A DNA stretch of 64,000 nt, taken from contig CAJINV010000001.1 in the NCBI GenBank assembly GCA_905178155.1, positions 15,438,142 to 15,502,141 on the forward strand, given 5' to 3'. The position numbers and the translations under genes were made by a program. Source of the DNA: Amoebophrya sp. A120 (Eukaryota; Protista; Dinoflagellata). A model generated the notes under the pieces. The model saw only the letters and a program-made list of their open reading frames with translations, was not told where the DNA came from and searched no databases. This document shows, piece after piece, positions 8,347-49,289 of this stretch (position 1 is the stretch's first letter; the number at the start of each line of letters is the position of its first letter).

Positions 8347-9147
8347 GAACGCCACAACCCGAAAAGCTGGACAGCGGGCGTCGCGGCAGCGGGATTTTAA
8401 AGAGCCTGTTTGGTTGACTGGGTTTTCTTTATCGATATCGTTTGCGTTCCTGTTCGGAATTCAGTGGAAAGCTTGCAGCGTGCCGCTCGTTCTAATGAAC
8501 TGCGTAAGGAATAATTTTAGATGCGAATCGCACGATCGCAAAATTCGCTGCTGCGGTCACAAATGTTGACACTTGTGTTGCTCACAGCCGTCGTGGTCCC
8601 AGGTTGCCGTTATAATTTGCAGCCGTTAGACCACTCCGAGTCACAGCCAAGCATATGACCGGTAGTGTGAATACGCCAAAGAACAATCCGAGATGACACG
8701 CTGCTGTCGGAGCCGGGGGCGTGGATGACGCGCTCCCTAGAAAAATGCGAACTTTTTCAAAAATTAGTGCCTGTGGCTTCCACCAGGCGCAGGGTAGGCC
8801 AGGGGTTGATTCTTTGTTCAACGAAAAACTTGTACCGGTGGGTGCCGTCCACGGGATTACCGAAGCTCAGTTCTTCTGTGGTTCGCTGAACACGGGCGTG
8901 GTCCTCAGATTTTCGTAGAAGTACCGAAGAGCAGCAGGAGCAGCTGCAGATGGCGCTCTTGTCGTGGTTTGTAGTTGATAATAGTAACTACAACTTGGTC
9001 GCGGCGACGGTCCCGTGTAGGCAAACAACATCACTCACTGGTTCAATTTATCTCGGAGCACGACCAAAATTTCCTAGAATATGCGTTGTACCTTCGAGTT
9101 TGATCTGAACAAGCCACGCCTTCGTTAACCTTTTATGAAACGAAAGA

Positions 9148-26355: not shown

Positions 26356-29300
26356 ATGGCGCCCCGCGCACGGCTAACATCGCTGGTGCTGACAGGCGTG
26401 TCCTGCTGGGACGCGCAAAATGACCCCACCCGGGAGTTTCCGAACGTCAATTTTGCACCGACGAACTCGCCGTCTTTGCTCCGAGAAAAGTATTTCACGT
26501 CCGGCGGATCGAGTTCATCTTCCGCTGGAGGTTCGCGGGCCAGCAATGCTGCGGGAGGTGGAAATAAGCAAGGAGATACAAATTCAAATAAACACAACCA
26601 TCAAGATGCGAATCAAAGACGAGAGAGGCGAGCCGGTGCGCGCGACCACGAAAACAATAATTACAACAATCCCTTCAAGGACTGGAGGAATAAAAAGCCG
26701 ATCACCGAACTCGAGTTATCGCCTGAGGACATCATCCAGCGGCGGGCGCTCCGACAGGCGGCGATCGAATTTTCCAATCGAAAAATGTTTGCCAAATACG
26801 GCCACGCCAGGAAGTACCTGAATCCGCGAATGGACGAACCGGGCCAGGATGAATATTTGAGTCCCGACGAAGTGGCGGCTCTCTCGTTGCAAGACTTCAC
26901 GCACGCTCCAGGGGAAGCGCGGGCGACCGAGGAAAAACACCTGGGTGCCGCTGCGGCCGCGGCCCTGCAAGTTGATGGGCCGACCAACCACGATAGGTCA
27001 AGCGATCGGAAGTTGGGGATTCAAGAGCCGGGAGTCGTGAACCCGGACGGTGTGGAAGCAGGAGGAGGTGTAGCTTCTCCGGATGTAGTTGTTTCGGCGT
27101 CGTCTGCAAGCAGCTCAGTGGACCAGACCGAGGCTGTCTCCTCCTCCGGCACAGCGAGCAGCCGCGAAGAGGATACTAGTGCCTCTGCGCAGCAGCAGCA
27201 ACGACAGAAACTTTTCGAGTCCGTGGTGCACAATGCACGGGCCTCAGAGCGAAAGCGCATGTTGCAGCACAAACCGGCGATGGTGAAGTCCGTCACTGAC
27301 ATAGCGAGACAGTACCTGAGTCAGATCGTAGAAACAGCGGCAACAGACGCATCGTCACCGAACGAAGCTGGTGAAACTCCATCGCGGCGGTCCTTAGGAG
27401 ATCCTAGTAGTAAAACAGCCGGCATTAAGAATAGTGCTGTACCTCCCGTCGTACCAGGAGGACTAGCAACTTCCAGGCGCGGCTACTTGAATAGTCTTGT
27501 GGAGAAAACACTTTCCGTGCTAGAGAAGACACACGACGACCGCGAGGCTCACAAAGACCCCAAAACATCTTCCTCACCGGCGGCTTCAACATCAAACATA
27601 GCAGCAAGGCCAGGGGAGAGCGGCAGCGACTACGCGCGCAGACTGCAAGCAGAGGTCGACGGCGCTTTGAATACCGTCGTTTCCGAGGAGGAAAGGCAAA
27701 CCGCCGAAACCGCAAGTCACGATACCGACTACAAGGAAATCGACCGTTCGGTGTTCTACAGCCAACTGGCCGAGGTAGAAGCGGTGCTTCGGCACCTAAC
27801 GACCGGGACTTATCAAATGTAAAAATGTCTGGGTCTGGAAGATTGCGAGATTTGTCATGCAGATTTTCCATGACCCATGAGGTCTGGAATGCCGGGCCTA
27901 GCATGACAGAGTCTGTAAGGTCTCTGCCATGCCTATCCCGCATGAGAAACTACCTCCCAACTTGGTCGAAAGTGGACAGCTTTTGGCACTCATGCAACAC
28001 AGATTTTTGCATTATTCGGATTTAGCATGACAAGTTTTAATCTTCCAGACCCAGACATTTTTACATTTGATAGGACCGGGAGCGCCACGACCGCGCCGCC
28101 TGGTGGAGCAGTAAACGCGTATCCTGTGCAAAAGTATCGTACTCGTACTAATTGCTTTTATGCATTGCAAATATTTTTCTTAAGGCAAATCCGCATTACA
28201 AATTCAATTTGTAATGCTGAGCTAATTTGTGTTGCAATTTATACTAGTACGATGCTTTTGCAGTTCATAACGCGACGTCCACGACAACGACCACAACCTT
28301 GGGATGCATCCGCAACTGTTGCGAGGACGTGAAAATATCCGTGCGCATCCTCGCGGACGAATACATGGATTTGGGGCTGGGAGTGGTATTTTTCTCTTTT
28401 CCTGCTGGGCTGGTCAGCTGCTTTTCTTTGAGAACACGACTTACCAGCACAGCACGAACACAAAGTTCTGCTTCGAAATTCAGGTCGTCCTTGAGGACAT
28501 CGTCGAAGTGTCATTGTCGGAAATAACAGAAAAAAATTACCCTTTTTACTGACCAAAACAGAACCTGCGCCAGACCTGGTCTGACTTGAGCAAGACGGAG
28601 TGCCAGAAGGTGGACTGCCAGTGCGAGATGATTTCCGACTGGGTCGAAACACAGTGCATTTTTTACGTGTCGCAAATCATAACGTCCGGCACAGAAGTGC
28701 AAAACTACTGTACCGGTGCGGGTGGGACAAGGTCACTCTTCGAAAAAGCATACTGTCCTGCCGCTTGCTTGCCCGTAGATTGCAACGACCAGCAGGGCCA
28801 ACAGTGCATGGGAACGTGCGGCGACTTTCTCGGTATAGGGAATTTTGGAATACTATTGGATTCTTCGCGAAAAAGCGAAAGAAGATGCGAGGTTGTTAAT
28901 AGCATACTGGATGTGACTAGTCTCAGGTTGCTCTTCAATCTCCTTCTCTCTAAAACAAGTATAAAATCGCACTATCTACTACAGATTGCCGCTGCAGTAA
29001 CCGTTTAGGAGGCTCTAAGCCGCCACGGTGTGAGGGGCTTACGGAAATCACGAAGGAACCGTGTTACGAGCCACCGGGAATCTGTGCCATGCACACGCCC
29101 TCCGTCGGGCAGTGCGCGCCTTACCACTTTTGTCCGAAGAATTTGTGCAACATTCTTAATGTGGTGTGTGTGCCAGACGATATGTGCCAGGGGGACGGCA
29201 TTTGCATTCCTAGCACTGGACAATGCGTGTACCCCAACCTTGCAAAAGGGACGCCCTGCGAGGATAATATCTTCTACACCTACAACAAAACCTGCAACGG

Positions 29301-32407: not shown

Positions 32408-35400
32408 ATGGCCATGGGCATGATGACTACCTCGAAACCGCTCATGAGCAGGTCAATTTTTTCCGGAGAAGCCGCGCCAGCTCGCATTTGCTTCCGACGC
32501 CGGAAGAAGATACCATTTCATGTACTTCTCCCGACGGTCGTCGTCGTCCTCGTGATCGCTGCAGCGAATGTAGGTTGTTCTACGGTCGACGACGAGGCGG
32601 CCCTCGAGGGGCCGCCGAGCTCCCCCGGAGGTGAAATTCTTCGATCGCTGCAGAGCACGTCCTTGGACGCCGGAAACACAACGGCCGATGGCACGGTCAC
32701 CGGGTGCACGCAGTCCTGCTGTGCGAACGTGCGGAAAGCAGTGGAGGTGCTTGCTTCGGAGTTTTCAGACCTTGGCGTGGATGCAGTACTGGTTTTGCTA
32801 TACGATTGTCGGAACACGATCACATTTGACATGGACATTTTTCGTTTTGATTGAACATGCACCTAATTATCACAATGAATGTGGATCATGTCCTAGTAGA
32901 TCTAGAACTAGCTCTGGGTTTGTGCTGTTGATTTCCGTTTCCCATATCGTCTCACATTTCAGCAACACACTATATATCGCAGGAAGCTCAGAAGGAATGG
33001 GCGCGGTTGGCCGAAGACCAGTGCCCGTTGCTGAATTGCGACTGCGAGGAAATGAGCGCGTACGTGGAGACGCGGTGCAACTTCCACGTAGGCGCGGAGG
33101 TGATGTCCGTGGACGAAGCAAGAAAGTACTGCGCGGACACGCGGGCGCTGTTCCGCGACGGGTACTGCCCGGGCGCCTGCCAGGTCACTCACCAGGAGTG
33201 CAACAGCGTTCCCGGCCAACGGTGCATGCGTCAGTGTGGCAACTGGCAGGACTGCAAGTGCAAGAACCGCCGGGGCACGACCTTTCCGGTCCAGTGCGAT
33301 GGGGTGGTGGAGATCTCGCGCGAACACTGTGTGAACAATCCGCCGCCGCCGAGCTGCGGCGCGCACCATGTGGAGGCGAGCATTTGTGCGCGGTACCACT
33401 TCTGCCCGAAAAACCAGTGCCTGATCCGCAACGTGTTCTGTCAGGCCGACGACCTCTGCCAGGGGGAAGGCATCTGCATTCCCAGCACCGGAGGCTGCGT
33501 ATTTCCGAACCTCCCGAAAGGTGTTTTTGGCTCGTTCTTTCATCAGTACGAGGCACAAGTGACGAGAGCATTCTTTGCTTTGCCGTTGCTCATGTCCTCA
33601 GAATGTCATTCGTCGTTTTCCATATGAACAATTTTGTTCCAAAGATTTCTTGTTCAAAATCAAATCCAAATGTGAGATCACACCATCAAGGTACGCCCTG
33701 TGACGATAGCCTTTTCTACACGCCTCGCGAGAGCGATAAGTGTGACGGGCTCGGGAAGTGCGTCGGCGTGCCGGACCTCTGCGAGCTGCACAATGTGAAA
33801 TGCCTGGACGCGGATCCGGCCTGTGCGGTGCTGCCTGGTACCTGCAGCCCGGACAGCGGGAAATGCGTGTACCAGTTTCGGCAAGACAGCACGATTTGCG
33901 ACGACAACCGGTTCTACACGGTCGGTGACCAGTGCAGAAGCGGGCTGTGCGAGGGGGTGATCGTGGACCTGTGCGCCAATGTGGAGTATTGAGAGGAAAA
34001 ATCCCCCCTCCCCATATTGAAAAGGTATGTTTCCAAAAATTTGTGTTGCGGATTTGAGGTCACAAATCACATCTGTCTTGCAAGAAGACAAGGGCAGAAG
34101 CTTCCGCCCCATTATGGAAGCGGTTTGCCATGCTGTTGGGCCTAAAGGGGGGCCGTTTGCCATGCTGAACTACTAGACCCATACGCCCCTACCTAGCCTG
34201 GGGATCTGGCCGCAGTGCCTCTCTGCAATACAAAGCTGATTTGTGGCCACAAATCAGCATCACGAATTTCCGTTTTGATATGGGGACGGGGGATTTTTCA
34301 TTTTGATATGGAGTGCGGAAAACCCGCCAACGACCCCTGCCGGGGGGACGGGCGGTGCCAGCCCGCGACGGGGCGGTGCGCCTTCCCGGAGCTGCCGGAC
34401 GGTACGAGTTGCGGCCGCCACTCGCAGTGCATCGAGGGCTTGTGCATGGCCGACGAGTTTCGGGGCGCGCCCAAGTGGCTCACGGTCGGCCAGGGGCAGT
34501 GCGCGGACTCGTTGGGCAAGCGAATGGCCGCGTTGCAGCGCGATGTGGAAGACGAGTTCGCGTGTCAGGGGTTGTGCGGCGGGGACGTCTCGTGCAAGGG
34601 GTACAATTACGTGTTCGAGTCCTCCAGCTGTACGATGTATTCCTCGATCAGGACAGTCGCGCCCACCGGAGGCATCGCGTTCGGGTTTGCGGCGGTAGAA
34701 GAGTCTTATTGGGTTTCGTTATGCTGTATGGTTCTTGCTTCAATCTTGGTGCGTAGTTCTCGGTTTCGCGTGAAGTAGATCCTTTTTGCTTATGTCATCG
34801 CACAGAGTTATCAGAGATTTGCTCAAGAGCATGACACGGCCAACAACATCAACACAGGCCGACATTCCGCCCTCGCTGGAAATCAGCCACGTTCTGACCC
34901 CGCTTCCCGGCGAGGCGGGCAGCGTGTGCAAAAAGAAGGACCACAAGGGAGACCCGGCCGCAGCAGGAAGCCTCTGGCGGGAGTTCTTCGACTTCATGCA
35001 AGGTCCGGGGATCATTCTGCTCACGGCTTTAAGTCTCCTCGGCTACTTTTGGGTATCCGTGAAGGAGGCAAGTTTGGCATTCAAGCACAGTGCCGCCAAG
35101 GTGCTGTCGCCGGCCGGCCGGAAGGCGGCAGCTGCGCGCATGCAGGAAAGGATGCAGCGGCAATCGCGAAAGTTCGAAGAAATGGTAGAAAACTCCCCGA
35201 CCCTTCGCACGGTTCGCGACAAGACGCTGCTGACCTTGTCACCAAAAAATGGTGTGCGTGGTAGTCCGAAAAAAAAGAGCCCGAAAAAGAAAAAGAAGAA
35301 GCAGGACCAGCACGGTAGAGGTATTAGGAAAAGAAAGAGCCGACTATACAAGGTAGATCCGGAAGAGGGAGTCGGAATAGAAGATGAACAACACCGACAA

Positions 35401-36255
35401 GAAGAAGAAGATTTTGAAACAACTACACAACATCAAGCCGACAGGCAGGTGTCAGACATTCTCCAAAAGAAGAGAGAGACCGCAGAGCAAAAGAGAAAAA
35501 AGCAGCCGCAATCTCGGGCGAGCACATTGCGGTTTGAATCAGAAGCGGAGGTGGCGGAATACGATTACGAGGACGGTTCGTCCGAAGGCGAAGAAACCGA
35601 TTCATCATCGGACGCCGATGCAAATCTCGACGGCATCGAGTCGCTTGAAGATGCAGAGGGCGTTGGGCAGAGAAAATCCTTCTACAAGAAGGCCGTGACG
35701 AGGTTGTCGTCGATGTTTCAGTGGAGTTGGCGCACGACACGGCTCAGCTTTCAAGAGAGTACGACAAGTAGCTTCTTTCTCCGCCGGAATAACAACCGGG
35801 AGAAAGGCCCGTCGGATCATGAGGAGAAAGAGGATACCAGTGTGGAAGTGGTTACAACTGGAAGCAAGGCAGAACAAGAAGGCTCAGCATCCGAGCTGCA
35901 ACATCAAGCTGATGATAGCAAAGCCGTACCGGCGGGGCGGCAATCGAAGTCCTCCATGCACCGACCGTCCGAAAAATCACAGTCGGGCAGGGTATCGCGC
36001 AGCGGAAGAAGTAGGAGCAATGCTGATGAAGAGCTTGACAAGAACGCAACAACAAACCGCAAGTCGAGGAAATCTGAGCAGCAAGGGAACGACCAAGCGC
36101 AAGCACCATCTGAAGGACCAGAACCTCTGCGACAGGAAGATGTAGTGCGGCATCACGAAAATAAGATGAAAATCGAGGATTTTGACGACGATCTCGACAA
36201 GGGCGGACGAGGAACTGGCAGTCCTGTAAAAAGGACGATCATCGAAGAAAGTTGA
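32408..36255 (+). CDS. Cys-rich repeat + PAN/Apple-like single-pass membrane protein, paralog B; exons approx. 32408-32785, 32983-33520, 33691-33986, 34314-34694, 34858-36255
   Basis: Collinear with paralog A (YHFCPKNQCLIRNVFC vs YHFCPKNLCNILNVVC; TVGQGQCADSLG vs TVGEGQCVDNLG); N-terminal hydrophobic segment, TM GIILLTALSLLGYFWV, long charged tail. Start codon uncertain. Confidence 0.78.
33987..34308. mobile_element. 322-bp MITE-like introner, family C
   Basis: TSD TGGAG (33982-33986, 34309-34313); ~39-bp imperfect TIR with core GAAAAATCCCCC(C/G)TCCCCATAT. It contains an in-frame TGA; removing 327 nt gives DLCANVE-CGKPANDPC. Confidence 0.88.
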
Positions 36256-37074
36256 AGCGGCTAGTAAATTAAGTTTGGGAAGGAAGTAGTAATTATCGTC
36301 ACACGTGTCTAGTAGTTGCTGTGCACCACGCGCAGTCATTGCAAAAATGTTCTGCTGCTGGTTTTTAATATTTAAATCGTACTAATTGTAGTAGAGTAAA
36401 AAAAGTGACAGTGACTGCTTATAGGGTAGAACATGCGCTGCAAGCGCATGCAGAACATGAATGCGAAGTTTCGATATGAGGTTGCTTCGAGTAGCAACGA
36501 ACTGCAAAGGTATTTGGAACTACAACATGCCACCGGCCTCCTGCTGGCAAGGTTTTTTTTGGCATAAGGGTCGTGTGAGTGCTACTTTGGAATCTCAAAA
36601 ACGATTGCTGAGAATCTTCAATTTTCCAGGACGGCGCAGGGAAAGAATGAGCTCTTCACTGCAACAAGTAAATTGTTGCGGTTGATGAAGAGACTAAGAC
36701 CGTGAACCAGAAGCAACATGTTGAGGAGCTGCACACAATGACGCGGCGCGGGCGCCTTACCTGTACATGGTAGCGTGTTCCGAGTTCTCCTCCCAATTGC
36801 TTCGAGTCTCAAACTCGGCTAAGCTGCGCCGCTTCTTCGTTCCGCAGCTTCTGCCGTCGATACCCTTTAATTCCCATCGATGCGGAGATCAAAGTTACAG
36901 TTAGCATGGAAAAGTGCGTGCAGGTGGGAACAGATCGCAACGGGGCGCGTCATTGATTGAAGACCTTGAAAGTTCAAAAAACTAGGATCAAAAAAAGTAA
37001 AAAACGATCCCCTCTGTGTAGTAATTCTTGTTGCCGTCTCTCTGCTTCGCAACCCGAACCCGAATACGTCCAAG

Positions 37075-38364
37075 ATGAGGTCTTACGCAGCTTCTGCCGC
37101 AGCCTCGACGGCTGCGGCTTCATCGTCTTCCTCCACTGCGGTGCGTAGAAGTACCACTTCTGCGGCTATGCAGTCCTCCAAAATTTCAGAGAACGGAACT
37201 TCCCAGGCCCTGTTTATTGAGTGCCTGAACAAAATCCGGGAGACCCGTTTGAACGTGGAAAACCACGCGACACAGAATCTGATGCGGCGCGCCAAGGAGG
37301 AGATTCGAAAGCTGACAAACGACGAAATTCATTTGGTTCGGAAGCAGTTTGAACGGTTAGAGCACGGGGACCACGTGCACGAACTGAAAAGCAGCACTGT
37401 GAAACCGGACACGACGGCAAGGGTGATGCAGCGCGACGGAGGCCAGTTGGCGGCGCGACTGCTGCCCGGAGGGGACCCCGCGAGTACCAAAGCAAGCGCT
37501 TCGACTTCGGTTGGGGCTGGCAGCACCTCTTCGGCGTTGAACGACCCAACAATCGCAACACCTCTTCGGCGTTCGTTCCAGGAGCACAACATCGACCCGT
37601 ATTGGGACCCTTTTTTTGAGGTGCAGACCGAAAAAGAGCGGGTGAACGCTGAGTTTGTCGAGTATGCAAAGGTCGTGTCCGCCGCCGAGGCCCGAGAGAA
37701 GCGGCTGGAGATTCGGCGCGCGGTCCGGCGCGCAGTGGTGTTGAGATACGGCTCCCGGTACGACCCTCTCAAGTACCACGGCGGCGAACAACTGCCGCAG
37801 GACGTACCGAAGCCCCACCGACTGCACGAGCGCTTTTGGACCCCGAACGACCGGCAACAAAAAATCAACGCGGAGCGCGCCATCACGTGGCGCGACGTCG
37901 ATTTGCTGCAACACCACCTGGCACCGAACGGCTGGATCCTTCCGCGACGCACCACCATGCTGTCCCGCAAGAACCAGCGGCGCATGACCAAGGCGGTAAA
38001 CACAGCACGCGCCATGGCGTTACTGCCGTTCGACTGGCGGCCCTCGGATTTTGAGTCGATGCCACTGATGGATCCGCTGCAGTTTACGGTGGACCGATTG
38101 ACGAACGAGGTGGCCAAGCCGCGGGCACGGGCGATGCTGGAGGTGATGCAGGAGAAGTATCCGGAGTTGAACTTTCGTGCGTACGACAAGTGGAAAACGG
38201 AGCTTTTTAGAGACGCTGCAAAGCAAGAAAAACGAAGTAGTAGGGCTGCATCAAAAGAGCCGTCGAGAACAGGAGCTGCAAGGGGACACAAGACAACCGG
38301 ACGGGACGGGGATGGCGGGGAACAACAATCCGCGGAAAAAGGCGACGCAGCTTTTGAGGAATAA
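37075..38364 (+). CDS. Mitochondrial ribosomal protein bS18m, extended form
   Basis: S18 core ITWRDVDLLQHHLAPNGWILPRRTTMLSRKNQRRMTKAVNTARAMALLPF; Ser/Ala/Arg-rich, acid-poor N-terminus resembling a mitochondrial presequence; single exon. Confidence 0.82.
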   Translation: MRSYAASAAASTAAASSSSSTAVRRSTTSAAMQSSKISENGTSQALFIECLNKIRETRLNVENHATQNLMRRAKEEIRKLTNDEIHLVRKQFERLEHGDHVHELKSSTVKPDTTARVMQRDGGQLAARLLPGGDPASTKASASTSVGAGSTSSALNDPTIATPLRRSFQEHNIDPYWDPFFEVQTEKERVNAEFVEYAKVVSAAEAREKRLEIRRAVRRAVVLRYGSRYDPLKYHGGEQLPQDVPKPHRLHERFWTPNDRQQKINAERAITWRDVDLLQHHLAPNGWILPRRTTMLSRKNQRRMTKAVNTARAMALLPFDWRPSDFESMPLMDPLQFTVDRLTNEVAKPRARAMLEVMQEKYPELNFRAYDKWKTELFRDAAKQEKRSSRAASKEPSRTGAARGHKTTGRDGDGGEQQSAEKGDAAFEE

Positions 38365-39420
38365 AATGCTGATGTTGAAGTAAACAATTACGAGCAAGAC
38401 GATGATCGATTTAAAGGCAACGATGTATATCAACAATAAAATAGGTCCTGCTCAAAATTAAAATGTACGTCTACTACTAGCAGAACTATCTCCGCGAAGT
38501 AAGTAATTTTTTTGTCTGAAATGCTTCTTCCCGCGACGAGAATTCCAATTCACGGCGGAGACGGTGGCGGACTGCAAACGTGGCAATAAAAACTTCGGTA
38601 CCGAAGAAATCACATTTGTTGAATTGACAAGGCCGTATTGAAGGTGTTCGCGTTCATTGTTGTGGCATGTACTTACGAGAAATAAGTGCGAAATAATCTC
38701 TCCTCTCTGTCATTTTTGCTATCGGTCGGAGCAAGCCTTGATCTGCCACTTTACTTTTTTTCCTAGTGCAATTTGAGTGTGTATTTTTAAAGCTAGGCAA
38801 AGCAACATGAAACAGTTCACAAAGAACCAAGCGAGCGCGAGACTTTCCCTGCGAGGGCGCAGCTGGCTCTGCTTCACGCTGTTTCTGCTGCGACAGCCAC
38901 CCACATAATCTATCCTGGTATATAATTTCAAGCCTCGTGCAGGTGCACGAGCACGTGCGTATCTTCTCTACTTACGTACGGAAGCATCATGATGATACTC
39001 ATACATGTGTATGTGTATGTGCTGGAACAAGCGAAGTATGGCTCTGCTCCGAGCACGTGCGTCTACCGTCACGACGATAACAGACTTTGCAGGAACAAAT
39101 GTAGACATAGAGTGTGATTTGTTTTTGATTGGTCGTCGTCAGTGTGTAGAAAAACGTGTATCAAAATCATGTCAAGACCGAACATTTCCGCAGGAAGACA
39201 TGAGCTGTCTGACTCCGAGTGTTTGAAGCCGCCGAACAGGTCGCCGCCTTAACAAATGCGTCCCATTTGGATGAGCACATGGCCATCGACCGACGTGGTT
39301 CGTCCGCTCCAATAGCATTGGCTTGGTGCCAACACCCGACACGTTAGCAGGCGTTGCGTTTCGCTTTCCACTCGGCGACGAAGCCCACACAGAACCACCT
39401 CTACTTCCACAGACGAGAAG

Positions 39421-42400
39421 ATGCTGGTGCCCGTTACTGCGGAAAAATGCCTGCACGCCAATCTCCGCCTGTTGCGCAGGCTCGTGCAGGCGGCGGAGGT
39501 GTGGGCACTTCGCACGGGGCAGCGGTTCGGTTTTCAAACTGCGTCTTCTTCTGTTCTGGCAATTCTGGTCGTTCTGTACATTGCCATGTCGCGAAAAGCG
39601 AGGAGCGTTGCCATGTTTGACGTTTTTGTCCGCTTGCCGATTTTCCTGGTGCCCTTCGTCGCGTTGCGTCGCACGGTCCGGTTGTTGATGACCCGGCTGC
39701 AGCGCGAGATGTTTGCGGCGGAGGGGTTGGGCGAGCACATTTGGCTGAGTGGGGGAGACTCGTCGGTAGGCTTTGATCAGCACGTACCGACAAAAACAAG
39801 CAAACACGTGGACCCCTACGTGTCGGACCTTCTTCCCACCGCGGCGCTGATGATCGGGCGGCAGGGCACGCAGAAGCTGGATTTCTATGTCGCAGTGATC
39901 CGCGACTATTTGAAATCTGTTTTCCGCTTCAGCCAGGGTGTGGGGAAAAGCGCCTTGAAATACCTGGTCGGCGTGTGGCTCTCCGTGGAACTCGGGTTCT
40001 ACATCTGGTTCTACTTCAAAAAACGCGGACTAAACAAGCGCGAGCACCAGTTTCCGCTCCACTCGTCCAATACGAAAACACGCCTGGAGCTGCTCATGTG
40101 GTGGTTGGACACGCTCGACCGTGCGGCCCTGGCGCGGCTCGAAGCGGCGTCACAGCACGAAGCGGAAACAGCACCGACGCTGACCTCGGAGCTACACGAA
40201 AACGACAGCATGCGATCGTCGTCTCTTCACGACCTCAGGGTACTGATTTATTTTGTGGCCTCGTTTCTTTCTGAATCAGTAACAGTATCAGAAAGATCAC
40301 AGGATGTCTCGCCGTGTCATCTCACAATGAAAGAATAGAAAAGATTCATTAAGACTAAGTTAGTAGATGTACGAAGCTACAACATGTAAACGTACTCCAG
40401 GAGCACTCCGGTATTGGTGTGGTTTCCAGTGCCGAGGAGCTTGCGGATGCCCACGGCTCCAGCCCACGCCTTGTGCGCGCTGCGCCACCGCCGAAAGTGG
40501 CGAGCAGAGCTCGACTGCTTCTTGGGCAGCGGTTGAGCGTCTTCGACGAAGGTGACAACACAAACTCTTCCACTGTCGGCCGCTTTTCTAAACTGGCGCG
40601 GAGCTACAGTATGGCCGACGCGTTCGCTTCTGTCAATAACAGTGTTAATACGCCCACCGGCGCGAGTAACGCTACGACTAGACCGCTCAGCAAAAGCGGC
40701 AGCTTCACCAAGCACATGGTCCGGCGACAGGCAAGCTTGGACACTTCGGGCTCCGACGGCGGGCCCCCACTCGTCATTCCGGGTGGAGGGCGAAGTGGCC
40801 TTCAATCGACCAACTCGCGCAGCCACGGCCGAATCACACCCATCGCCGGAAGCCGGAGTCACGCAGTCGTGTTTCCTCCACAACTTACAACATCGAACGA
40901 TCATGGCGCAGCAGTAGGGTCTACTTCATCATCTTCTAGGACGTTGCAGCGACGCAGCAAGGATTTTCTGCAACTCCGGCAAACTATGTCGTCGAAAGGA
41001 GTGCTGCTTCCTTCTGTTTGCAGCAAGGTTGATCTGCAGGCCTACACATGTATGATGGAACGGGAGTTCAAGTCACATTTCGATGAGTCACAGCTCGCCG
41101 GTATAGGAAGGCGCGGGGAGGACGACCTTGACCTGGATGACGACGTTCCCGCACTGGATTTGCCGCCTAGAGAGGCTCGCTCACGCGATGCGTCGAAGGA
41201 GTCAGCTGGGACGCGACAACAGGACGTAATCGAGAGGAGCCCGAATGCCCACAACAGAAAGCTCGGTGAACAAAGTGATACAGGGGGACCAATGTCGAAA
41301 AAAACCGCAGGGCCGATTGCGAGGCCAAGGAATAAGAACGGGGAGCTGGTGCACGAAAGAACTTCTGTGGCCTCGAACGCGTCTGCGTTAGGTACCGCAC
41401 TCGAATTTGGTCCTCGAAGCAAGAATGAATTGACAAAGCAACTCACTCGCATGGCGTCGATGCTTCCGCGCGCGTCGCAGGTCAGCGTCATCGCGCCCGC
41501 CCGCCATGTCGTCTCCAAAAGCGTGTTGGCATGGCGAGACGTGCTGAAACTCTTCATCGTGCAGATCCGGCGGGCCTTGCCGTTTAGCTTGGCTATTAAG
41601 GTTGGAGACTTGTCTTCGGGAATAATTGGCGTGTTTAAGCCACTTCTAAATCTCCTGATTAACATGAACCCGCTGCTGAGCGACGACCTGGTTTCCGTGC
41701 TGACGGTCGACCTAGAGTTCGCAGCGAGCGGGTACGGCCAGGAAACGCAAGGGATGGAGGCAATTCTGCACGCGCTAGAGAAAGAAGACAACGTCATGCT
41801 GCTGCCGACCTCGTTGATGGACCTGCGACGTGCGGAGTTCGCGTCATGGTATAGCAAATCGTTATTTTCTTGAGCTCGACCACGAGGACGACGAGCGCAG
41901 CTGAAAGAAGACGTTAGAAAGTTTGACCATGCAGCCTAGAAACCAGTACAACTTAGCTTCGAAACTTAGTAAGTTGTACTCTTTAGCCATTTTATTTGCA
42001 ACGGCAGCTGCACCTTATCATGCTTTGTCACTATCAGGTTCACCGACGACCTGGTTTCTAACTGGGCCGACATCTACCGCCCCGTCGACCTGCGCCTGGT
42101 GTCCCGAAAAGACGTGGAGGAGTGGGTTGCAACGCACTGGTTCGAAGCCCGCCTGCTCGCGGACATCATGCGCGCGTCGCCAGAAGAGTACAGCGAGCTG
42201 AAGGAGATGGCCAAATACGTCATCAACTGGGCCGAAGTGGGGCAAATTTTGTCCAAGAAAAAAGTGAAGGCCTGGTGGAACTGCTACCATGACGAACTGC
42301 CCGTGCTCTACCGTCCGGCGCTGGTCTACTTCACCACCACACTGGTGCTTCCCGGCGTGGAGAAGTACCTCTTTTCCCTCGATTTTCAGCCGGAACGGAT

Positions 42401-44476
42401 CCATATCCTGTGCAAAAGTATCGTACTCGTACTAATTGCATTCATGCATTACAAATCTCTTTCTCAAGGTAAATCAGCATTAGAAATTGAATTTTTAATG
42501 CTGGGCTAATTTGTAATGCAATTTCTACTAGAACTAGTACGTGTACGACTACGATGCTTTTGCATTGCATAATCCAAGCGAAGAAAGCCGAGTTGTTAGT
42601 CTTGCAGAGAAGCCGGAGAAATGCCGAGAAGGAGAAGTCAGGCAGCAAGCGAAGTGCAGCGAAAAAGAACTTGAGCGCACTCGTCGCGGCGGAGGAGCTC
42701 GCGCAGAAGAGTCAGAGCATGCTGCCGGCGTTCGTCCAGTCACTAGTCGGGTTTGGCGGCTTTGAAGAGAAGTATCGCGGCACGATGCGATACTTCTACC
42801 GGCGCGCGACGAACCCAAAAGCGACCCCAAAGCGGACGAGCCGTGTAGCTTTTTCGTCCTCTACAGGCGGAAAGATGACCAAGATGAGAGAAGAAGATCC
42901 GGAAATCACGACGAGCAGCAGCCCGGAGAAGCCAAGCACGCACGACCAAGAATATAATCTGTTACACGGTGCTGGCGGAACATCAATGTCTTCAAGCGGA
43001 ATGAGAACAACTAACTCCCGAGGCGTACAACTGGCTGGTCAGAGCAGCATGATGCCAAATAGCAGTAGCCGTACCACCCTGAATATCGGGACACGCGTGC
43101 CGTCGCAAGCGACGTTAGACTTGACGGGAAACCTGGCGACACCCTCGCAGCCCATGCGGTTTTCGCGGCAACACACGTCCGAAGACGGCCCGAGTTCTCT
43201 ATTTGGCAATGAGAAGCAAGAAGAACAACAAACTTTCGTCGAGAACAACAATCGGCCTCTCCCCTTGGTCCTGTGCCACGGGTTGGGGGTCGGTTTGGTG
43301 GGGTATGGTACCATGGTGCGCGGTATGGTCGAGACCTTCGGGGAGGAATACGACTTGTTTGTGTTGTCAGAGCCCTGGGTGAGCATGCGGGTCTACGACG
43401 CAGTTCCCACGGGAAGGGAAGTCGCGCTCGCGATCATGCATGTGCTGGATTTCCACGGCTACCAATCCGCGCATTTTGTCGGTCACAGCTACGGCACGGC
43501 GATCTGCAGCTGGTGCGTGAAGCACGCGCCCAGCATGGTAAAGAAGTTGACGTTGCTGGATCCGGTGTGCTTCCAGACCCTGAAGACCGCCTTGGGCACG
43601 ATGTCGGGCACGTTCCGCGAGCCCGGAAACATCGTGGACGCAGTGATTTCCTACGTCGCGTTTCGCGAGTTGTTCACTGTCTTCGCCATGTCGTGGATTC
43701 ACTGGCAGGACACGGAGCTGTTCCCCGAAGTGTTGCCGCAGGGCCAAACGCTCGTGTTTTTACAAGAAAACGACAGCATCGTTCCGGTGCAAACCGTCCG
43801 CGGCTACCTCTCCGAGTACGAACCGTTGCTGAAAATCGTCTACAACCCGGGCACGTTTCACGCGTGCTTCCTGCTACCCCAGTTCAACTACCTCCTGCAA
43901 ACGGTGCTGTGCGAGATCCTGAGTTTGCACGAGAAACCAGATCATGCTTTTGGGGGCGCTAGCGCCATGAACGACGCAGCTCTACTACCGGGGACGAGTA
44001 ACAACGGAGGCGCTGGAGTAGAAATGCAAATGAATGCAAGTTCTTTGAACGATTTCCCCTTGACTTTGACCAGCGACTTGACGATCCGCAGTTCGGGGCA
44101 GGATTTGAGCGCGTTGTACCAGCAGCATGCCCCGGTGATACTAGAAGAGGACGACCACGTGGAGGAGGAGATCGCCCATCTCCTGAAAGTCGGGCACGAA
44201 CACGAGGAAGCCATTGCCGATCTTAGTCGAGCGACAAGCAAGAACTACAGTGAAGACGACGAGCGCGAACGGGAACGGAGAACCAAAATATCCAGCCCCC
44301 GCAACGTAATCCTAATCAGTCCACCGCCGGGAACTACAAAGCCTACTCTCGATTCCGTACTAGTGCAACCTCCACCGGTGTCTACCCCAGGATCCGGCTT
44401 TGCCACGAACATCGTCCAACAAATGAGCTCGCCGACCGAGAGTGACAGCTACAGCAACAGCGCCGCCAGTGATTAG
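39421..44476 (+). CDS. Membrane-associated alpha/beta-hydrolase fold protein; exons approx. 39421-40239, 40401-41848, 42038-42403, 42577-44476
   Basis: PLVLCHGLGVG, nucleophile elbow HFVGHSYG, LLDPVCF, QENDSIVP, GTFH; N-terminal hydrophobic helices. Two GT-AG introns (40240-40400, 41849-42037) and one introner. Confidence 0.78.
42404..42571. mobile_element. 168-bp MITE-like introner, family A
   Basis: TSD ATCCA (42399-42403, 42572-42576); the first ~36 nt are identical to the 28120 copy (TATCCTGTGCAAAAGTATCGTACTCGTACTAATTGC). Removing 173 nt gives QPERI-QAKKAELL. Confidence 0.9.
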
Positions 44477-45423
44477 AAATCACTTGAATGATGTTGTGCG
44501 AGAAAGAGCATCTCCACCAGCCTAAAGTGGGGGACAGTACTCGCAGCACTGTCGCATGCTGCCTCCTGGGACTGCAACATGGGCCGCCACGACGACGCCG
44601 TCGCTCCCGTTTCGGTTTCGCATTGGAAAACTGATTGTTTCGCAAATTTTACCAATACTGTTCGTTCTTGTATCGAGCTACTCGCTCCATCTTTCTCCGC
44701 TACAAGGAAGTATGTTTGTCTTGTATAGATATCTGTACCCAGCAACAGCATCCACAACGCACAATTTGATAGTTTGACAAAATGTAGCTGTGTCATAAGC
44801 GGTCGCTAAGCCTAAATGTCCCTCCACCCTCACCACATAACCACCGGATTCGCCAGAACCTCTTCGACAAGTTTCCGTTTCAAGTTCCATTTTATCCGAA
44901 TGCATACATTTGATGATGCGAGTTCGGCATCTTCTTCAACTATACAGGCTTTGCCCCAATTTGAGGATGCCTGACGCCCCAGAGTGTGACAGGTTTTTGA
45001 AAATTGACCGTGTTCGCAAGTACTTAGTTTGTGTTCGAGTGATGATGGTGTCTCCGCGGCATGTTGAAAAGAGTGAATTGGTGTTGTGGACGTCTTGAGA
45101 GAGCACGAGGGAACTACATTTGAATGAGCGTGTTCCATTGCAAAAAACCCAGCAAATAACGCAAAATGAGGTAGAAGATGAGACACGAGAGGACGTAAAC
45201 AAAAAGCGGTGCTCCCTGTCACTTGTGTTTACAACTGAAGCAGGGATGATTCTCTAGGTTCCCAGTATTTCTGTTCAGCCAAAGAATCCGATCGAAGGTG
45301 AGAGCTGCGCTATCACAGTCAGATGGATTAGGTTTAGGACAACTGACTCTCCGAAGCAGGAGGTCTTGTTACTTGTTCGTCAATTTTTAGGATCAGTATT
45401 CCCGCCCGCGCGACGGACCAACG

Positions 45424-46158
45424 ATGGATGAATTGGACGACGGGCCGACCTACGCCTTGACTGACCAGCAGCTCGAGTCTTTTCGAAATGTTTTCACGAT
45501 GTATGCCGAACCGGTGGCCAGCGAGGAAGAGGAACCCAAGTGCAAGTGGGAGCACTTTCCCGCCATGTTTCGTGCGGTCAACCAAAATCCAACCTTGAAG
45601 GAACTGGATACTGTAATCGCGGAATTCAAGAAGGGCGAGACCTTCGACGTCGACTGCTTTTTGAGAATCATGGACTCCCCCTTCAATGCGGTATATTCAG
45701 TGCAAATTCATCAACATCAGCTAGACATAGAGATATATTGGACGTTTTGATTCTGCTGCTACTTTTTTGCCGCGGCCTGCTGCATGTTGATCACCGTTTC
45801 CATCCAACCCCTACAAATGCATTGAATCTACCACTAGTACACCTAGAATGATCTCCATTTCTGATATTTCTACATCAGGATCCATCCACTACTACTACTA
45901 CATCAGGATCCTTCCAAGCCGGAGGTGTTAATCGAAGCATTCCGAAAGTTCGACCGGGACGGGGCGGGCATCTTGAAAGCTGCGGTGATGCGATACGCCC
46001 TGGGCTGCATCGGCGACGCACTGGAAATAGAATCGGTCGATGAATTCATGGACTACGCACACAGTGTAGCGGACAAGGAGAAAACCGGCGAAATCGATTA
46101 CGAGCTGCTGGTGAAGAACCTCTTCGAGAAAGACCCGGGAATCACGGCTTGCTTGTGA
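45424..46158 (+). CDS. Calmodulin/myosin light chain-like EF-hand protein; exons 45424-45690, 45907-46158
   Basis: LTDQQLESFRNVF, MFRAVNQNPTLKEL, LIEAFRKFDRDGAG, IGDAL, DKEKTGEIDYELLV follow the calmodulin fold, with degenerate N-lobe EF loops. Confidence 0.85.
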
Positions 46159-46279
46159 CAAGAGCACAACTTCTTATTACGTGTGAGCAGGCGATGAGTG
46201 TGCGTTCGCGTCAGTATCCGATGCTGGTAAAATTTCCTCTTCTACCCGGTTGCATTTGCCTTGCTGTGGTTACTCCAGT

Positions 46280-48668
46280 AACGGGCCCCCAAAACAGGAG
46301 CAGAAGAAACTTGAAAAAAACCTTAAAAAAGCTTGAGCATTTTTGATTTATAGCAATTCAAAAAGCAAAAACCAAGAGGGGCAGCCGGAGGAGAAAAAAA
46401 ACGCACGGAACGGGCGCGATTTCCGGTCTCTGGAAATCGCAATCGCGCCGGCGATTTTGAAAAACTAAGCGAGGTGAACGGCTGGCGCAGATTCAAAATC
46501 AAAGGACTCGAACGGGAGGAATTTTTTTCATTTTATGGCGCGCCAAAATCCAAATCTGTGCTGCAGGAATAGCCATCCATAATTTTCGCGCGAAGGCGCG
46601 CCACTTTCAAAAGTTTACGAGTGCGACTCGGGGCAGATATTTTCCGCAGACATGGGGCAGCATTTCGCACGAACTTGACGGCCGCGGGGCGCGGTTCTTC
46701 TTCATTTGGGTGGGGGCCGCCTCGATGCATTCACTGCGCCGCGTGCGGGGGTGTTCAAAGTCCCTGCCTCGCACGGGCGCCGGCTGCCGGGGTGCCCGAG
46801 CTTGGCGGGCGGTGGGGTTCTGGCTCTTGCGAGGCCTTTTTGTAGTGCCGAAGCGGCCCCACTCGGAAGGCTTGCCGGCACAAAGGGCGGGCGCAGCGGG
46901 CCGTCCTTCCCGGGCCCCCCCGGAGGCCCTTTCATAATACACAAAGCCCCGCGGCCAGCGGGACTGCGCAAGCAGCTTCTGGCCCCCTAGGCTTGTACGC
47001 ATAGGGGCGCCCACGCGCGTGGGCAGGCGGCCTCTTTGTTCCCCGCGCCGTGTTTGCGCGGGTGCGATCCGGCCCGGAAAATGAAGAAAATCAAAAGTGC
47101 CACACCATCGGCCGGAGGGTGTGATAGTATCACACCCTCCCATCAAAAGTATCAGATACTTTTTGCCGCGGTGCTGTCATGCATGCGAAAAAACACGCAG
47201 AACCCGCGTCGACCATGCCATTGGCTCTGGGGTGTGATACTTTTTGGCAGGATGAGTTCACGGAGGCCGAAAATGATGAAAGCGACGCCGGCCATACCGT
47301 GGGCTCTAGGTTGTGATACTTTTTGCCAGGCTGCTACGGCGTTCAAACTTGCAACCCGGCGAAAGTGTTGGCGAAAATGCGTCACCTCCGCCGAAGCATC
47401 TCGGCAACAGGCGAAAACAACTTGGATCTGCCGACGTTTTTGGGCCAAAATCTGAAGGGCTCCGTCCACCATACCACCGGGGCTAGCTTGCGATGGCTTC
47501 CAAGCACGCGACCCGGCTTGCAAGTCTTTTCCAAGTTTATTTCAAGTTTTTGCTGCGATTTCGGCCGCCCGCGGGCGTGCCCAGTTTTGGGCTACTTCCT
47601 GAGGCCTGTCCACGGGCTGACGGAGCCGATTTGCGAGTCGCAAAAGCGGCGGCGCCTTCCGAAGGCGCCGGCCGAACTTGGGAAGGGGGGTAAAGTCCTG
47701 ACTTTTGCTGGTTTTCTTCGCCCATGGTGCCGCCGTGGTAAAAAGTATCACACCCTAGCGCCGCTTGCATGGCGAACGCAGGTTGCCGCGATGGCGAAAG
47801 GGAAAACCTTCGCCCGCGTGCCCGCCCTGCGAAAAAGTATCACGCCCCAGCGCCCATGGTATGGTCGGTCGGGCTTTCCGCCATGCCCCCCGGCTGCTTG
47901 CTAAGCACGCCGCGCCCGCTGGCGCCGCCAGCCTGGGCGCGGCCGGCCCCCTCGCTCGCCGGCCCCGGCGGCCCACGGCGTCCCTTCGTGATTTCTACCG
48001 GCGCGCCGCGGCCGCCCCCGGCCCATCGATCGGCAGGCTGCGCCGGCCATCCGCCAGGGGCGGGCACCGACGAGCCCGGCGCACGCGGGTGCGCCGGGCT
48101 ATTCCCAACAAAGAAAGGGACGAACCAGCGCGCCACCCCTAGCGCCCACCGTCGTCCGCCCGGGCGGGCGCGCCCCCTCCGTGTGGCCTGCCGGCCTTTT
48201 TGGGGCATCTATCAGGCTCGGCGTTCTTTTCGGCATTGGCGGCGCGGAGCCAGCTTCTCGCCAGTGATCGGGCGGATTGATTAGTGGTGGGCGCGTTCTG
48301 CTTTCTCTAGGTATAACGAAAAAGCAGCGAAGGCGGCACCCAAAACAATCCGCGCCCGGTCTAAATCTCGACAATAGGCAGCTTTGGCTGGAGCGGCCAA
48401 CTGTCCGGATTCGGATCGTGTTTTGATTTCAAAGCAAAGCGGTTTTGGTTCCTGGCATTAAACGCGAAAAACAATACGAAGAGGCACAGAAAGCGTCGCG
48501 CCGTGCCATAGCTTGTCCTCCTGTTGTTGGTTTCAAAGTTGGGCGCGTCACAGGTGCGCTCACAGAACAGCTCACTTTGAAGCCGTCGCGACCCTCTCGA
48601 ATATGGGTCGCGCAAGTCTTTGGCAACTTGGTTGCAAGTTTCGATCTCCATAAAATTGGGGGTCCGTT
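46280..48668. other. GC-rich non-coding island, possibly a non-autonomous mobile or structural element
   Basis: Composition shifts abruptly to G/C runs mixed with A/T tracts; only short low-complexity ORFs. Bounded by a 12/13 inverted match, AACGGGCCCCCAA (46280-46292) / TTGGGGGTCCGTT (48656-48668); no clear TSD. Confidence 0.4.
47093..47866. repeat. Array of about 9 full or partial AAAAAGTATCACACCC motifs, with palindromes and nested ~40-bp inverted repeats
   Basis: GGAGGGTGTGATA-G-TATCACACCCTCC (47114-47140); AAAAGTATC-A-GATACTTTT (47145-47163); units at ~47211-47251 and ~47291-47330 are inverted relative to ~47732-47773 and ~47826-47866. Confidence 0.85.
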
Positions 48669-49289
48669 CCACCAGTAATGTGGTAAGAGCCGACTGCTTA
48701 TTTTCTTGTGAGCACTGCGGCTGCGGCTGCGCTGCACTAGTATTCTATCCGGGCTGCAAAGTTTCTTTTTGTTCAAGCTGATGCTGAACGAGAGAGTGAA
48801 GACGTGAAATTTAGAGAGTAAAGTGAATGGTGGGCCGCGAGATTATGCTCCGCCGCAGAGAAACAGAACCAGAAGCCGAAACGTGTATGGTTGACTCAAC
48901 CGAAGAACAAAGTCATGATAAACAAGAAATAGTAAGTGCGCAGGTCCCTGTGTCGCCAAGCGCGCCCGGTTGCGCGCTCGTATGGTTTTTTTTTGTTGCG
49001 CAGGAGTAGGAGTACCATTCGCAGCTCGTTGTTCTTTTTTTTTCGACATTGTTGTATATGCTGACACACGCCATGCCGCTTTACCTTCACGCTTTCTCTT
49101 TCAATTTCAAACTGACGCAGAAGTAGATCATTGGTTCTTTTCACCTCACTTGAAGAGCAACGCAGTTACAACTACGCCGCATAGAGAGTAAGTGCCTAGG
49201 TTCTTTTTAAGTAAGTAGTTCTCCTTCTTCAACTTTATTTTTGAGTAATTTTCTGCAAACCAGTGTGAGCAGATATAGAGTGGAGAAAA

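What the first reader, a model, noticed from the sequence alone, without database searches (positions are those of the whole stretch)
42399..42576. An intron that can have neither a GT/GC donor nor an AG acceptor
Seen: with TSD ATCCA the six possible precise excision registers give ends AT..TA, TC..AA, CC..AT, CA..TC, AT..CC or TA..CA. The downstream exon carries the entire hydrolase catalytic region and shows no decay. Inference: if spliced, neither the U2 (GT-AG) nor the U12 (AT-AC) rule applies, which points to a relaxed spliceosome or a structure-guided excision mechanism. This is the most diagnostic junction in the window.
Basis: partly seen in the sequence, partly recalled or inferred. 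Interest (0 to 1): 0.8.

Follow-up and report, generated by a model that had tools for sequence, protein, structure and literature searches.

The report
Transposon intron lacking normal splice signals
A repeated 168-base element, likely a small transposon, sits inside a hydrolase-fold gene of the marine parasite Amoebophrya and is missing to the base from the messenger RNA although it has no normal splice signals, likely because its paired ends mark the cuts; this kind of intron was described in this organism in 2021, so this is an ordinary member of a strange class whose cutting enzyme remains unidentified.

Summary
A 168-nt element (42404-42571) with 29-nt terminal inverted repeats lies between two ATCCA copies, and none of the six precise registers offers GT/GC or AG. 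Transcript contigs from two samples of one study skip exactly 173 nt (42398->42572) on the same contig as two GT-AG introns. A DNA-like run holds both element borders. The host protein is 100% identical to a 1510-aa Amoebophrya sp. A120 protein whose public model already has this junction. The ends (TAT-N7-AAA, 5-nt duplication) match the A120 introner elements of Farhat et al. 2021 (PMC7789003), who report about 65% non-canonical introns. Related copies (53 metagenome loci) have free 5-nt duplications and appear in both orientations to the inferred reading frame. Only 4 of 46 strand-called elements can be read GT/GC-AG, and 10 of 46 lack even a half site. The paired ends are the likely signal; the enzyme is unresolved (relaxed spliceosome slightly favoured over a separate nuclease/ligase). 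The scan noted similar elements in other genomes. Already known; interest low to moderate.

The parts
42399..42403 (+). Left copy of the 5-nt direct repeat ATCCA (target-site duplication, inferred)
   Evidence: direct repeats of free sequence flank 45 of 53 related copies
42404..42571 (+). 168-nt repeated element, 34% GC, MITE-like introner; it and one repeat copy (173 nt) are absent from the mRNA contigs
42404..42432 (+). 5' terminal inverted repeat, TAT-N7-AAAA type; with the preceding A it reads ATATCCTG, a partial look-alike of a U12 donor
42543..42571 (+). 3' terminal inverted repeat ending ATA; 24 of 29 bases pair with the 5' arm
42475..42503 (+). Internal hairpin within the predicted long stem
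   Evidence: self-match; fold
42532..42549 (+). 18-nt insertion relative to the modal 150-nt family length
   Evidence: alignment; length counts
42572..42576 (+). Right copy of the direct repeat ATCCA
38941..40239 (+). Host gene exon 1 as far as the transcript contig reaches; start ATG at 39421
40240..40400 (+). Canonical GT-AG intron of the same gene
40401..41848 (+). Host gene exon 2
41849..42037 (+). Canonical GT-AG intron of the same gene
42038..42398 (+). Host gene exon 3 (its 3' border lies somewhere in 42398-42403)
42572..44476 (+). Host gene last coding exon to the stop codon (5' border somewhere in 42572-42577); alpha/beta hydrolase domain with GHSYG at 43481-43495, conserved Asp motif at 43763-43777 and His motif at 43850-43864 (triad assignment inferred)

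Best explanation
This is an introner element of Amoebophrya sp. A120: a likely non-autonomous DNA transposon that duplicated 5 bases on insertion, and that is removed to the base from the messenger RNA, likely because its inverted ends pair into a stem that holds the two duplicated copies side by side so that both are cut at the same offset. Shown: the anatomy, the family of copies, and the exact 173-nt removal that restores the 1510-codon frame. Inferred: insertion by a transposase encoded elsewhere (ends TA..TA and a 5-bp duplication point to an integrase-like DDE enzyme); the stem as the signal; use in both orientations. For the catalyst I commit, weakly (about 0.5), to a relaxed major spliceosome that reads the stem instead of GT and AG. 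The cut offset within ATCCA cannot be read from this junction.
For: Exact joint in contigs of two samples, on the same contig as two GT-AG introns. DNA-like run X6 has unbroken contigs across each border at genome-average depth. The host protein equals an A120 protein, 100%, 1510 aa, the length of my spliced model. End motif and repeat length match PMC7789003 section 11. Family: copies at 28120-28269 (88% over 131 nt) and 7884-8033 (80% over 121 nt); 53 metagenome loci, 45 with an inverted match of at least 15/25 and a 5-nt repeat of at least 4/5, 30 perfect. Removing element plus 5 nt leaves an open best-scoring frame in 24 of 43, against 9-12 of 43 for frameshifting offsets (26 of 43 for +2, the same frame). 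Orientation to the inferred frame: 12 same and 11 opposite of 23 called (20 of 43 uncalled); 18 and 13 of 31 called of 41 after neighbouring elements were removed. Terminal TAT/ATA pair in 43-44 of 45 copies. No junction preference: GT/GC-AG possible in 4 of 46, no half site in 10 of 46 against 12.6 expected. CTRAY near the 3' end is no commoner in sense (6 of 23) than antisense (5 of 23). For a spliceosome: A120 keeps all but six of 89 proteins and U2, U4, U5, U6, while U1 snRNA was not found (PMC7789003 passages); a review reports spliceosomal removal of TIR/TSD non-canonical introns in Fritillaria (PMC11282704 section 6).
Against: No experiment ties removal to the stem or to the spliceosome. 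Inverted repeats are conserved for transposition anyway, so their conservation does not show an RNA role. Positions 4-7 of the arms mostly do not pair (3-24 of 45), and 5' positions 8-33 were fixed by my search pattern. Orientation rests on codon scores in a related assembly with no RNA. Free terminal dinucleotides and no conserved branch point are hard for known spliceosome chemistry (own knowledge), and U1 proteins are present (Table S6), so U1 snRNA may simply be undetected. RNA support is assembled contigs from one study; raw-read runs gave no test (X9 none at the target; X10 0 laid). No empty site in DNA was obtained, and no transposase was found.
Confidence: 0.75

Rival explanations
1. 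Same element and same stem signal, but a non-spliceosomal nuclease and ligase cut at a fixed distance from the stem and join the exons, releasing a circle or linear RNA, as suspected for euglenid nonconventional introns.
For: Free junction dinucleotides, no branch-point bias, both orientations inferred. Euglenid introns with TIRs and TSD-like repeats leave as circles without lariats (review PMC11282704 section 6).
Against: No candidate enzyme is known. PMC7789003 reports the same repeat layout in 15% of canonical A120 introns, which fits one machine handling both but also fits chance GT-AG in the duplication.
Confidence: 0.35
2. The end sequence itself (TAT-N7-AAA at each end) is read by an RNA-binding protein, and base pairing is a by-product of the transposon's inverted repeats.
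For: Terminal TAT/ATA and the TGCAAAA block are nearly invariant at each end while positions 4-7 keep end-specific, non-complementary sequence.
Against: Different families with different inner arm sequences are removed (27811-28072 and 28120-28269), and a 2.4-kb element ending TTA..TAA appears removed too. All six small window elements fold strongly (z -5.6 to -12.9 forward).
Confidence: 0.15
3. A U12-like intron: in register 4 the intron starts ATATCCTG, close to the minor donor RTATCCTTT.
For: 7 of the first 7 bases fit RTATCCT (consensus from PMC2846911); the copy at 28120 starts GTATCCTG.
Against: No U12 branch core upstream of the 3' end (3 mismatches of 7); the end would be CC. TATCCT sits at the sense 5' end in 9 of 23 copies and at the antisense 5' end in 7 of 23. 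The spliced element at 27811 starts TATCAAA. PMC7789003 found no U11, U12, U4atac or U6atac.
Confidence: 0.04
4. The mRNA uses nearby canonical sites, or the hydrolase exon is a separate transcript.
For: Frame-keeping GT/GC..AG pairs exist nearby on paper. Contigs drop rare variants, so a minor form is not excluded.
Against: Single contigs of 5443 and 5301 nt cross the junction at 42398->42572 with no other letters; the public protein and two homologues join both regions.
Confidence: 0.02
5. The element is lost at DNA level (an empty allele or excision), so the joined form is not splicing.
For: X1 and X4 are RNA by guess only, and the joint table was cut, so absence of a DNA joint was not seen directly.
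Against: The same contigs lack two GT-AG introns. X6 contigs run unbroken 34280-42427 and 42495-46298 at depth 42-46, like the rest of the genome, so no fork at the borders was kept.
Confidence: 0.02

Closest known systems
Introner elements among the non-canonical introns of Amoebophrya sp. A120 (Farhat et al. 2021, PMC7789003)
   Same: Same organism by protein identity. Inverted repeats starting TAT, seven freer bases, then three or more A; 3-5 nt direct repeats over the borders; repeated copies; hairpin; RNA-supported removal without fixed splice dinucleotides.
   Different: Nothing of kind. The paper leaves the border position unknown and does not, in the text I read, test orientation or half-site dependence; which of its 1954 families this is could not be checked.
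Euglenid nonconventional introns (as reviewed in PMC11282704)
   Same: Terminal inverted repeats that bring the ends together, TSD-like repeats, non-canonical borders, unknown enzyme.
   Different: Different end motifs (CAG/CTG) and a pyrimidine|purine border preference; released as circles, which is untested here.
TIR/TSD introners of Fritillaria, Micromonas, Aureococcus and Polarella (PMC11282704, PMC7789003 section 16, PMC12130899)
   Same: Non-autonomous DNA transposons that act as introns and are removed with one duplication copy.
   Different: Those keep specific splice dinucleotides (AG-AC/AT, GT/GC-AG); here none is needed.
IS3EU/GingerRoot and Ginger2 DNA transposons (PMC10045372)
   Same: IS3EU ends are TA..TA; Ginger2 makes 4 or 5 bp duplications. 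PMC12130899 reports A120 TIR introners with homology to LTR-type integrase-like proteins.
   Different: IS3EU/GingerRoot duplications are 6 bp, not 5; no transposase is encoded here, so the superfamily is not assigned.

Membership tests
Amoebophrya A120 introner element (Farhat 2021) | Lies in the A120 genome | tested here: met
   Host protein 100% identical to a 1510-aa protein that its sources label Amoebophrya sp. A120
Amoebophrya A120 introner element (Farhat 2021) | Non-canonical intron supported by RNA | tested here: met
   Joint 42398->42572 in contigs of X1 and X4; contigs, one study
Amoebophrya A120 introner element (Farhat 2021) | Inverted repeat joining the 5' and 3' ends into a hairpin | tested here: met
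   24 of 29 terminal bases pair; fold z -6.9
Amoebophrya A120 introner element (Farhat 2021) | 3-5 nt direct repeat over the exon/intron borders | tested here: met
   ATCCA on both sides
Amoebophrya A120 introner element (Farhat 2021) | Inverted repeat starts TAT, seven variable bases, then at least three A | tested here: met
   TAT CCTGTGC AAAA at 42404; mirror at the 3' end
Amoebophrya A120 introner element (Farhat 2021) | Repeated in the genome | tested here: met
   Two more copies in the window; very high summed depth over the element in X6
Amoebophrya A120 introner element (Farhat 2021) | Assignment to one of the 1954 numbered families | not testable with these tools
   Family sequences are not in the supplement text that I saw
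U2-type spliceosomal intron | GT or GC donor and AG acceptor | tested here: not met
   None of six registers; RNA joint is the 173-nt one
U2-type spliceosomal intron | Removal through a lariat by U2/U5/U6 | not testable with these tools
   No raw reads of this strain covered the site
U12-type intron | Donor RTATCCTTT | tested here: inconclusive
   Register 4 reads ATATCCTGT, 7 of the first 7 and 8 of 9; no sense preference among copies
U12-type intron | Branch site UCCUUAAC near the 3' end and AC or AG end | tested here: not met
   Best core match has 3 mismatches of 7; end is CC
MITE / non-autonomous TIR DNA transposon | Short, non-coding, terminal inverted repeats, constant-length duplication of free sequence, many copies | tested here: met
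   Modal length 150 nt; 5-nt repeats of varied sequence in 45 of 53 loci
MITE / non-autonomous TIR DNA transposon | Empty site in a relative and a cognate autonomous transposase | not tested
   No genome held; no locus of the orthologue fetched; six frames of the 2.4-kb element gave no Pfam match
IS3EU/GingerRoot superfamily | TA..TA ends with 6-bp duplication | tested here: not met
   Ends fit but the duplication is 5 bp

The most novel reading that the evidence does not exclude
Amoebophrya has a second, non-spliceosomal RNA splicing machine that reads only a terminal stem, works in either orientation and at any flanking sequence, and so turns any insertion of its TIR transposons, from 150 nt to over 2 kb, into a seamless intron.
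Probability: 0.35. Interest if true: 0.85.

Novelty: already known. Interest (0 to 1): 0.25.

Why it matters
The class is published for this genome and the public gene model already contains this junction, so the site itself is not new. How these introns are cut is still open in the papers I could search, and a specialist would care about it: removal with no conserved splice dinucleotide has no accepted mechanism. This junction is a clean test substrate: no register offers a half site, the gene is expressed, and two canonical introns in the same transcript serve as controls. The small additions here are inferred use in both orientations, no detectable need for a half site, and one case showing that the 5' cut is not flush with the TAT.

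Tried and rejected
1. Register 4 as a GTAT donor mimic. Four of six window elements have G before TAT, but only 5 of 23 and 16 of 46 strand-called related elements give GT/GC there; not supported. 2. Selection for at least one canonical half site. Other strand calls gave 3 of 30, 3 of 27 and 3 of 23 (P 0.013-0.053). After removing neighbouring elements it was 7 of 31 against 8.5, and the replication set written down beforehand gave 3 of 15 against 4.0; overall 10 of 46 against 12.6 (P 0.25). Rejected. 3. U12-type donor; rejected. 4. A conserved CTRAY branch point near the 3' end; none. 5. Rfam at E up to 1 over 42300-42700: 0 matches. 6. The family motif in viral contigs: 0. 7. Raw RNA reads: X9 had none at the target and X10 had 0 laid; the estuary metatranscriptome X5 held only short pieces and no spanning contig, so it is no evidence. 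8. No whole genome is held and the contigs behind the loci are not held, so no genome-wide count and no larger replication set. 9. No transposase match in six frames of the 2.4-kb element. 10. Rows dropped: 8 of 53 loci failed the end/repeat filter; 2 of 45 had short flanks; 4 near-duplicate loci were left out; 2 duplicates and 1 long call out.
Full report
Observation. The window is eukaryotic DNA of about 51% GC. ATCCA stands at 42399-42403 and 42572-42576 around a 168-nt, 34% GC insert. The join reads in frame, while retention stops at 42507. The insert ends are inverted repeats (24 of 29 bases), and the region folds as a long stem (-61.9 kcal/mol, z -6.9, 0 of 200 shuffles). Five TAT..ATA elements of this build occur in the window against 1 in 60 shuffled windows; a sixth ends ACA.

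Is it spliced? The run search listed 11 runs; I laid 6 of them. Contigs of X1 and X4 (two samples, one study, RNA by the tool's guess) run from about 39,000 to 44,900 in one piece and skip 40240-40400 (GT-AG), 41849-42037 (GT-AG) and exactly 173 nt at 42398->42572, with no other letters. Because the same contigs lack the canonical introns, they are mRNA. In X6, which covers introns and spacers evenly at depth 42-47, contigs run unbroken across each border of the element (34280-42427 and 42495-46298), so the DNA holds it; that joint table was cut, so I did not see directly that X6 lacks the joined form. Raw-read runs gave no test (X9 had 85 reads, all on another repeat; X10 had 0), and X5 had no spanning contig. 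Contigs hide rare forms, so minor retention or minor canonical cuts are not excluded.

Host gene. The spliced model has 1510 codons from the first Met. A search with the hydrolase region among longer proteins (230 candidates, 3 hits) returned a 1510-aa protein labelled Amoebophrya sp. A120 at 100%, a transcript-derived protein at 75% and an A25 protein at 66%. The A120 protein reads through this junction as predicted, and all three join the upstream and hydrolase regions; the insertion lies at the edge of a poorly conserved linker. Pfam gives Abhydrolase_1 above its cut-off in the last exon.

Family. Two more copies lie at 28120-28269 and 7884-8033 (88% and 80%), each with a different 5-nt repeat; the target has an extra 18 nt. 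One scan of metagenome contigs gave 53 loci, all from one assembly prefix. Of these, 45 have both ends and a 5-nt repeat of at least 4/5, 30 of them perfect, with free repeat sequence; they are up to 91% (median 83%) identical to the target. Removing element plus 5 nt leaves an open best-scoring frame in 24 of 43, against 9-12 of 43 for frameshifting offsets. Orientation to the inferred frame is split: 12 and 11 of 23 called, 18 and 13 of 31 called of 41 after neighbouring elements were taken out. This is inferred from codon scores trained on the window; no RNA was available for those loci. The same loci hold 30 further elements of the same build.

Junction rules. Among 46 strand-called elements of 71, GT/GC-AG is possible in 4 and no half site exists in 10, against 12.6 expected from flanks. 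An early depletion (1 of 23 against 6.6; weaker) did not replicate. CTRAY near the 3' end shows no sense bias. Register 4 of the target begins ATATCCTG, like the U12 donor (consensus in PMC2846911), but there is no U12 branch core and no sense preference. One element limits the register: at 27811-28072 the repeats differ in the fifth base, and the RNA contigs keep the right-hand base (joint 27805->28073, 4 letters fit either side; sequence). If that gene is on the + strand (weak codon support), the 5' cut lies at least one base before TAT. This is one case, and the tool marked the joint 'between: not known'.

How it likely works. At DNA level, short non-coding copies with inverted ends and a constant 5-nt duplication behave as a MITE moved by a transposase encoded elsewhere (inferred; no empty site or enzyme found). 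TA..TA ends recall IS3EU/GingerRoot, which duplicate 6 bp, while Ginger2 duplicates 4-5 bp (PMC10045372 passages); A120 TIR introners with LTR-type homology are reported (PMC12130899 passages). At RNA level the only feature shared by both orientations and all families is the paired end: a near-invariant TAT/ATA pair, a mostly unpaired four-base gap, then a long helix (with the caveat that my pattern fixed 5' positions 8-33). The stem would hold the two repeat copies together so that equal-offset cuts restore the gene. The catalyst is open: about 0.5 for a relaxed major spliceosome, 0.35 for a separate nuclease and ligase.

Known work. PMC7789003 (I read the abstract, sections 11, 12 and 16 whole, passages of sections 5, 10, 25, 32 and 36, supplement passages and part 3 of 5 with Tables S4-S6; no figures) reports about 65% non-canonical introns in A120, 29,850 repeated introns in 1954 families, 3-5 nt direct repeats, and inverted repeats that start TAT, then seven bases, then three or more A. 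It found no U1 or minor snRNAs and leaves the border position unknown. The target meets every feature I could test. Eight of the nine predominant A120 site types in Table S4 are NT-AN, which is what TAT/ATA ends give when an aligner slides within a 5-nt repeat (my inference). PMC11282704 (section 6 and passages) treats the mechanism as open and describes the euglenid and Fritillaria parallels; I saw those primary papers only through this review. Searches for a later solution listed none, but the library lacks most subscription journals, and unseen figures and supplement parts may bear on the register. Earlier notes of this scan describe similar elements in other genomes; I did not test them, and none covered this genome.

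Verdict. Observation confirmed; interpretation supported as far as it goes; the feature is an already known kind of intron in the genome where it was described. Interest 0.25: the open mechanism is of real interest and this junction is a clean substrate, but the site adds little by itself.

Noticed in passing
window 46265-48683: A 2409-nt, 60% GC element (46270-48678) with ends TTACT..AGTAA between two TGTGG copies, in the 3' UTR of an EF-hand gene. The RNA contigs stop matching at 46270 and go on with sequence found at 48685, so it appears removed to the base. It holds inner inverted repeats around an AAAAAGTATCAC motif; six of its frames gave no Pfam match. Its TTA start resembles the A25-type end motif rather than the A120 one.
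   Followed up: partly
window 27806-28077: 262-nt element with a perfect 25-nt inverted repeat and unequal direct repeats; the mRNA contigs keep the right-hand fifth base, which limits the cut register. Such elements could fix the register genome-wide.
   Followed up: partly
window 28115-28274: Family copy (150 nt) removed in RNA contigs (joint 28113->28269), 41 nt from the previous element. Its retained form has one frame with no stop.
   Followed up: partly
window 7879-8038, 8073-8361, 33982-34313: Three more elements with 5-nt direct repeats; the one at 8078-8356 ends ACA instead of ATA. RNA removal was not checked.
   Followed up: no
window 45245-46270: Calmodulin-like EF-hand gene with a canonical 216-nt intron (45691-45906) whose 3' end repeats TACATCAGGATCC about 27 nt apart.
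   Followed up: no
L001-L053: Elements cluster densely, up to four in about 1 kb; the two end types (TATCCTG and TATGCAT) appear at either end of different copies.
   Followed up: partly
window 27988-28072: Raw reads of run X9, which otherwise does not cover this region, match part of one element at 95-99%, so a related strain may share that family.
   Followed up: no
window 29113-29279 and 33385-33721; 46950-48300: A 137-nt direct repeat pair at 72% (29113 and 33385) with further short shared blocks, unexplained.
   Followed up: no
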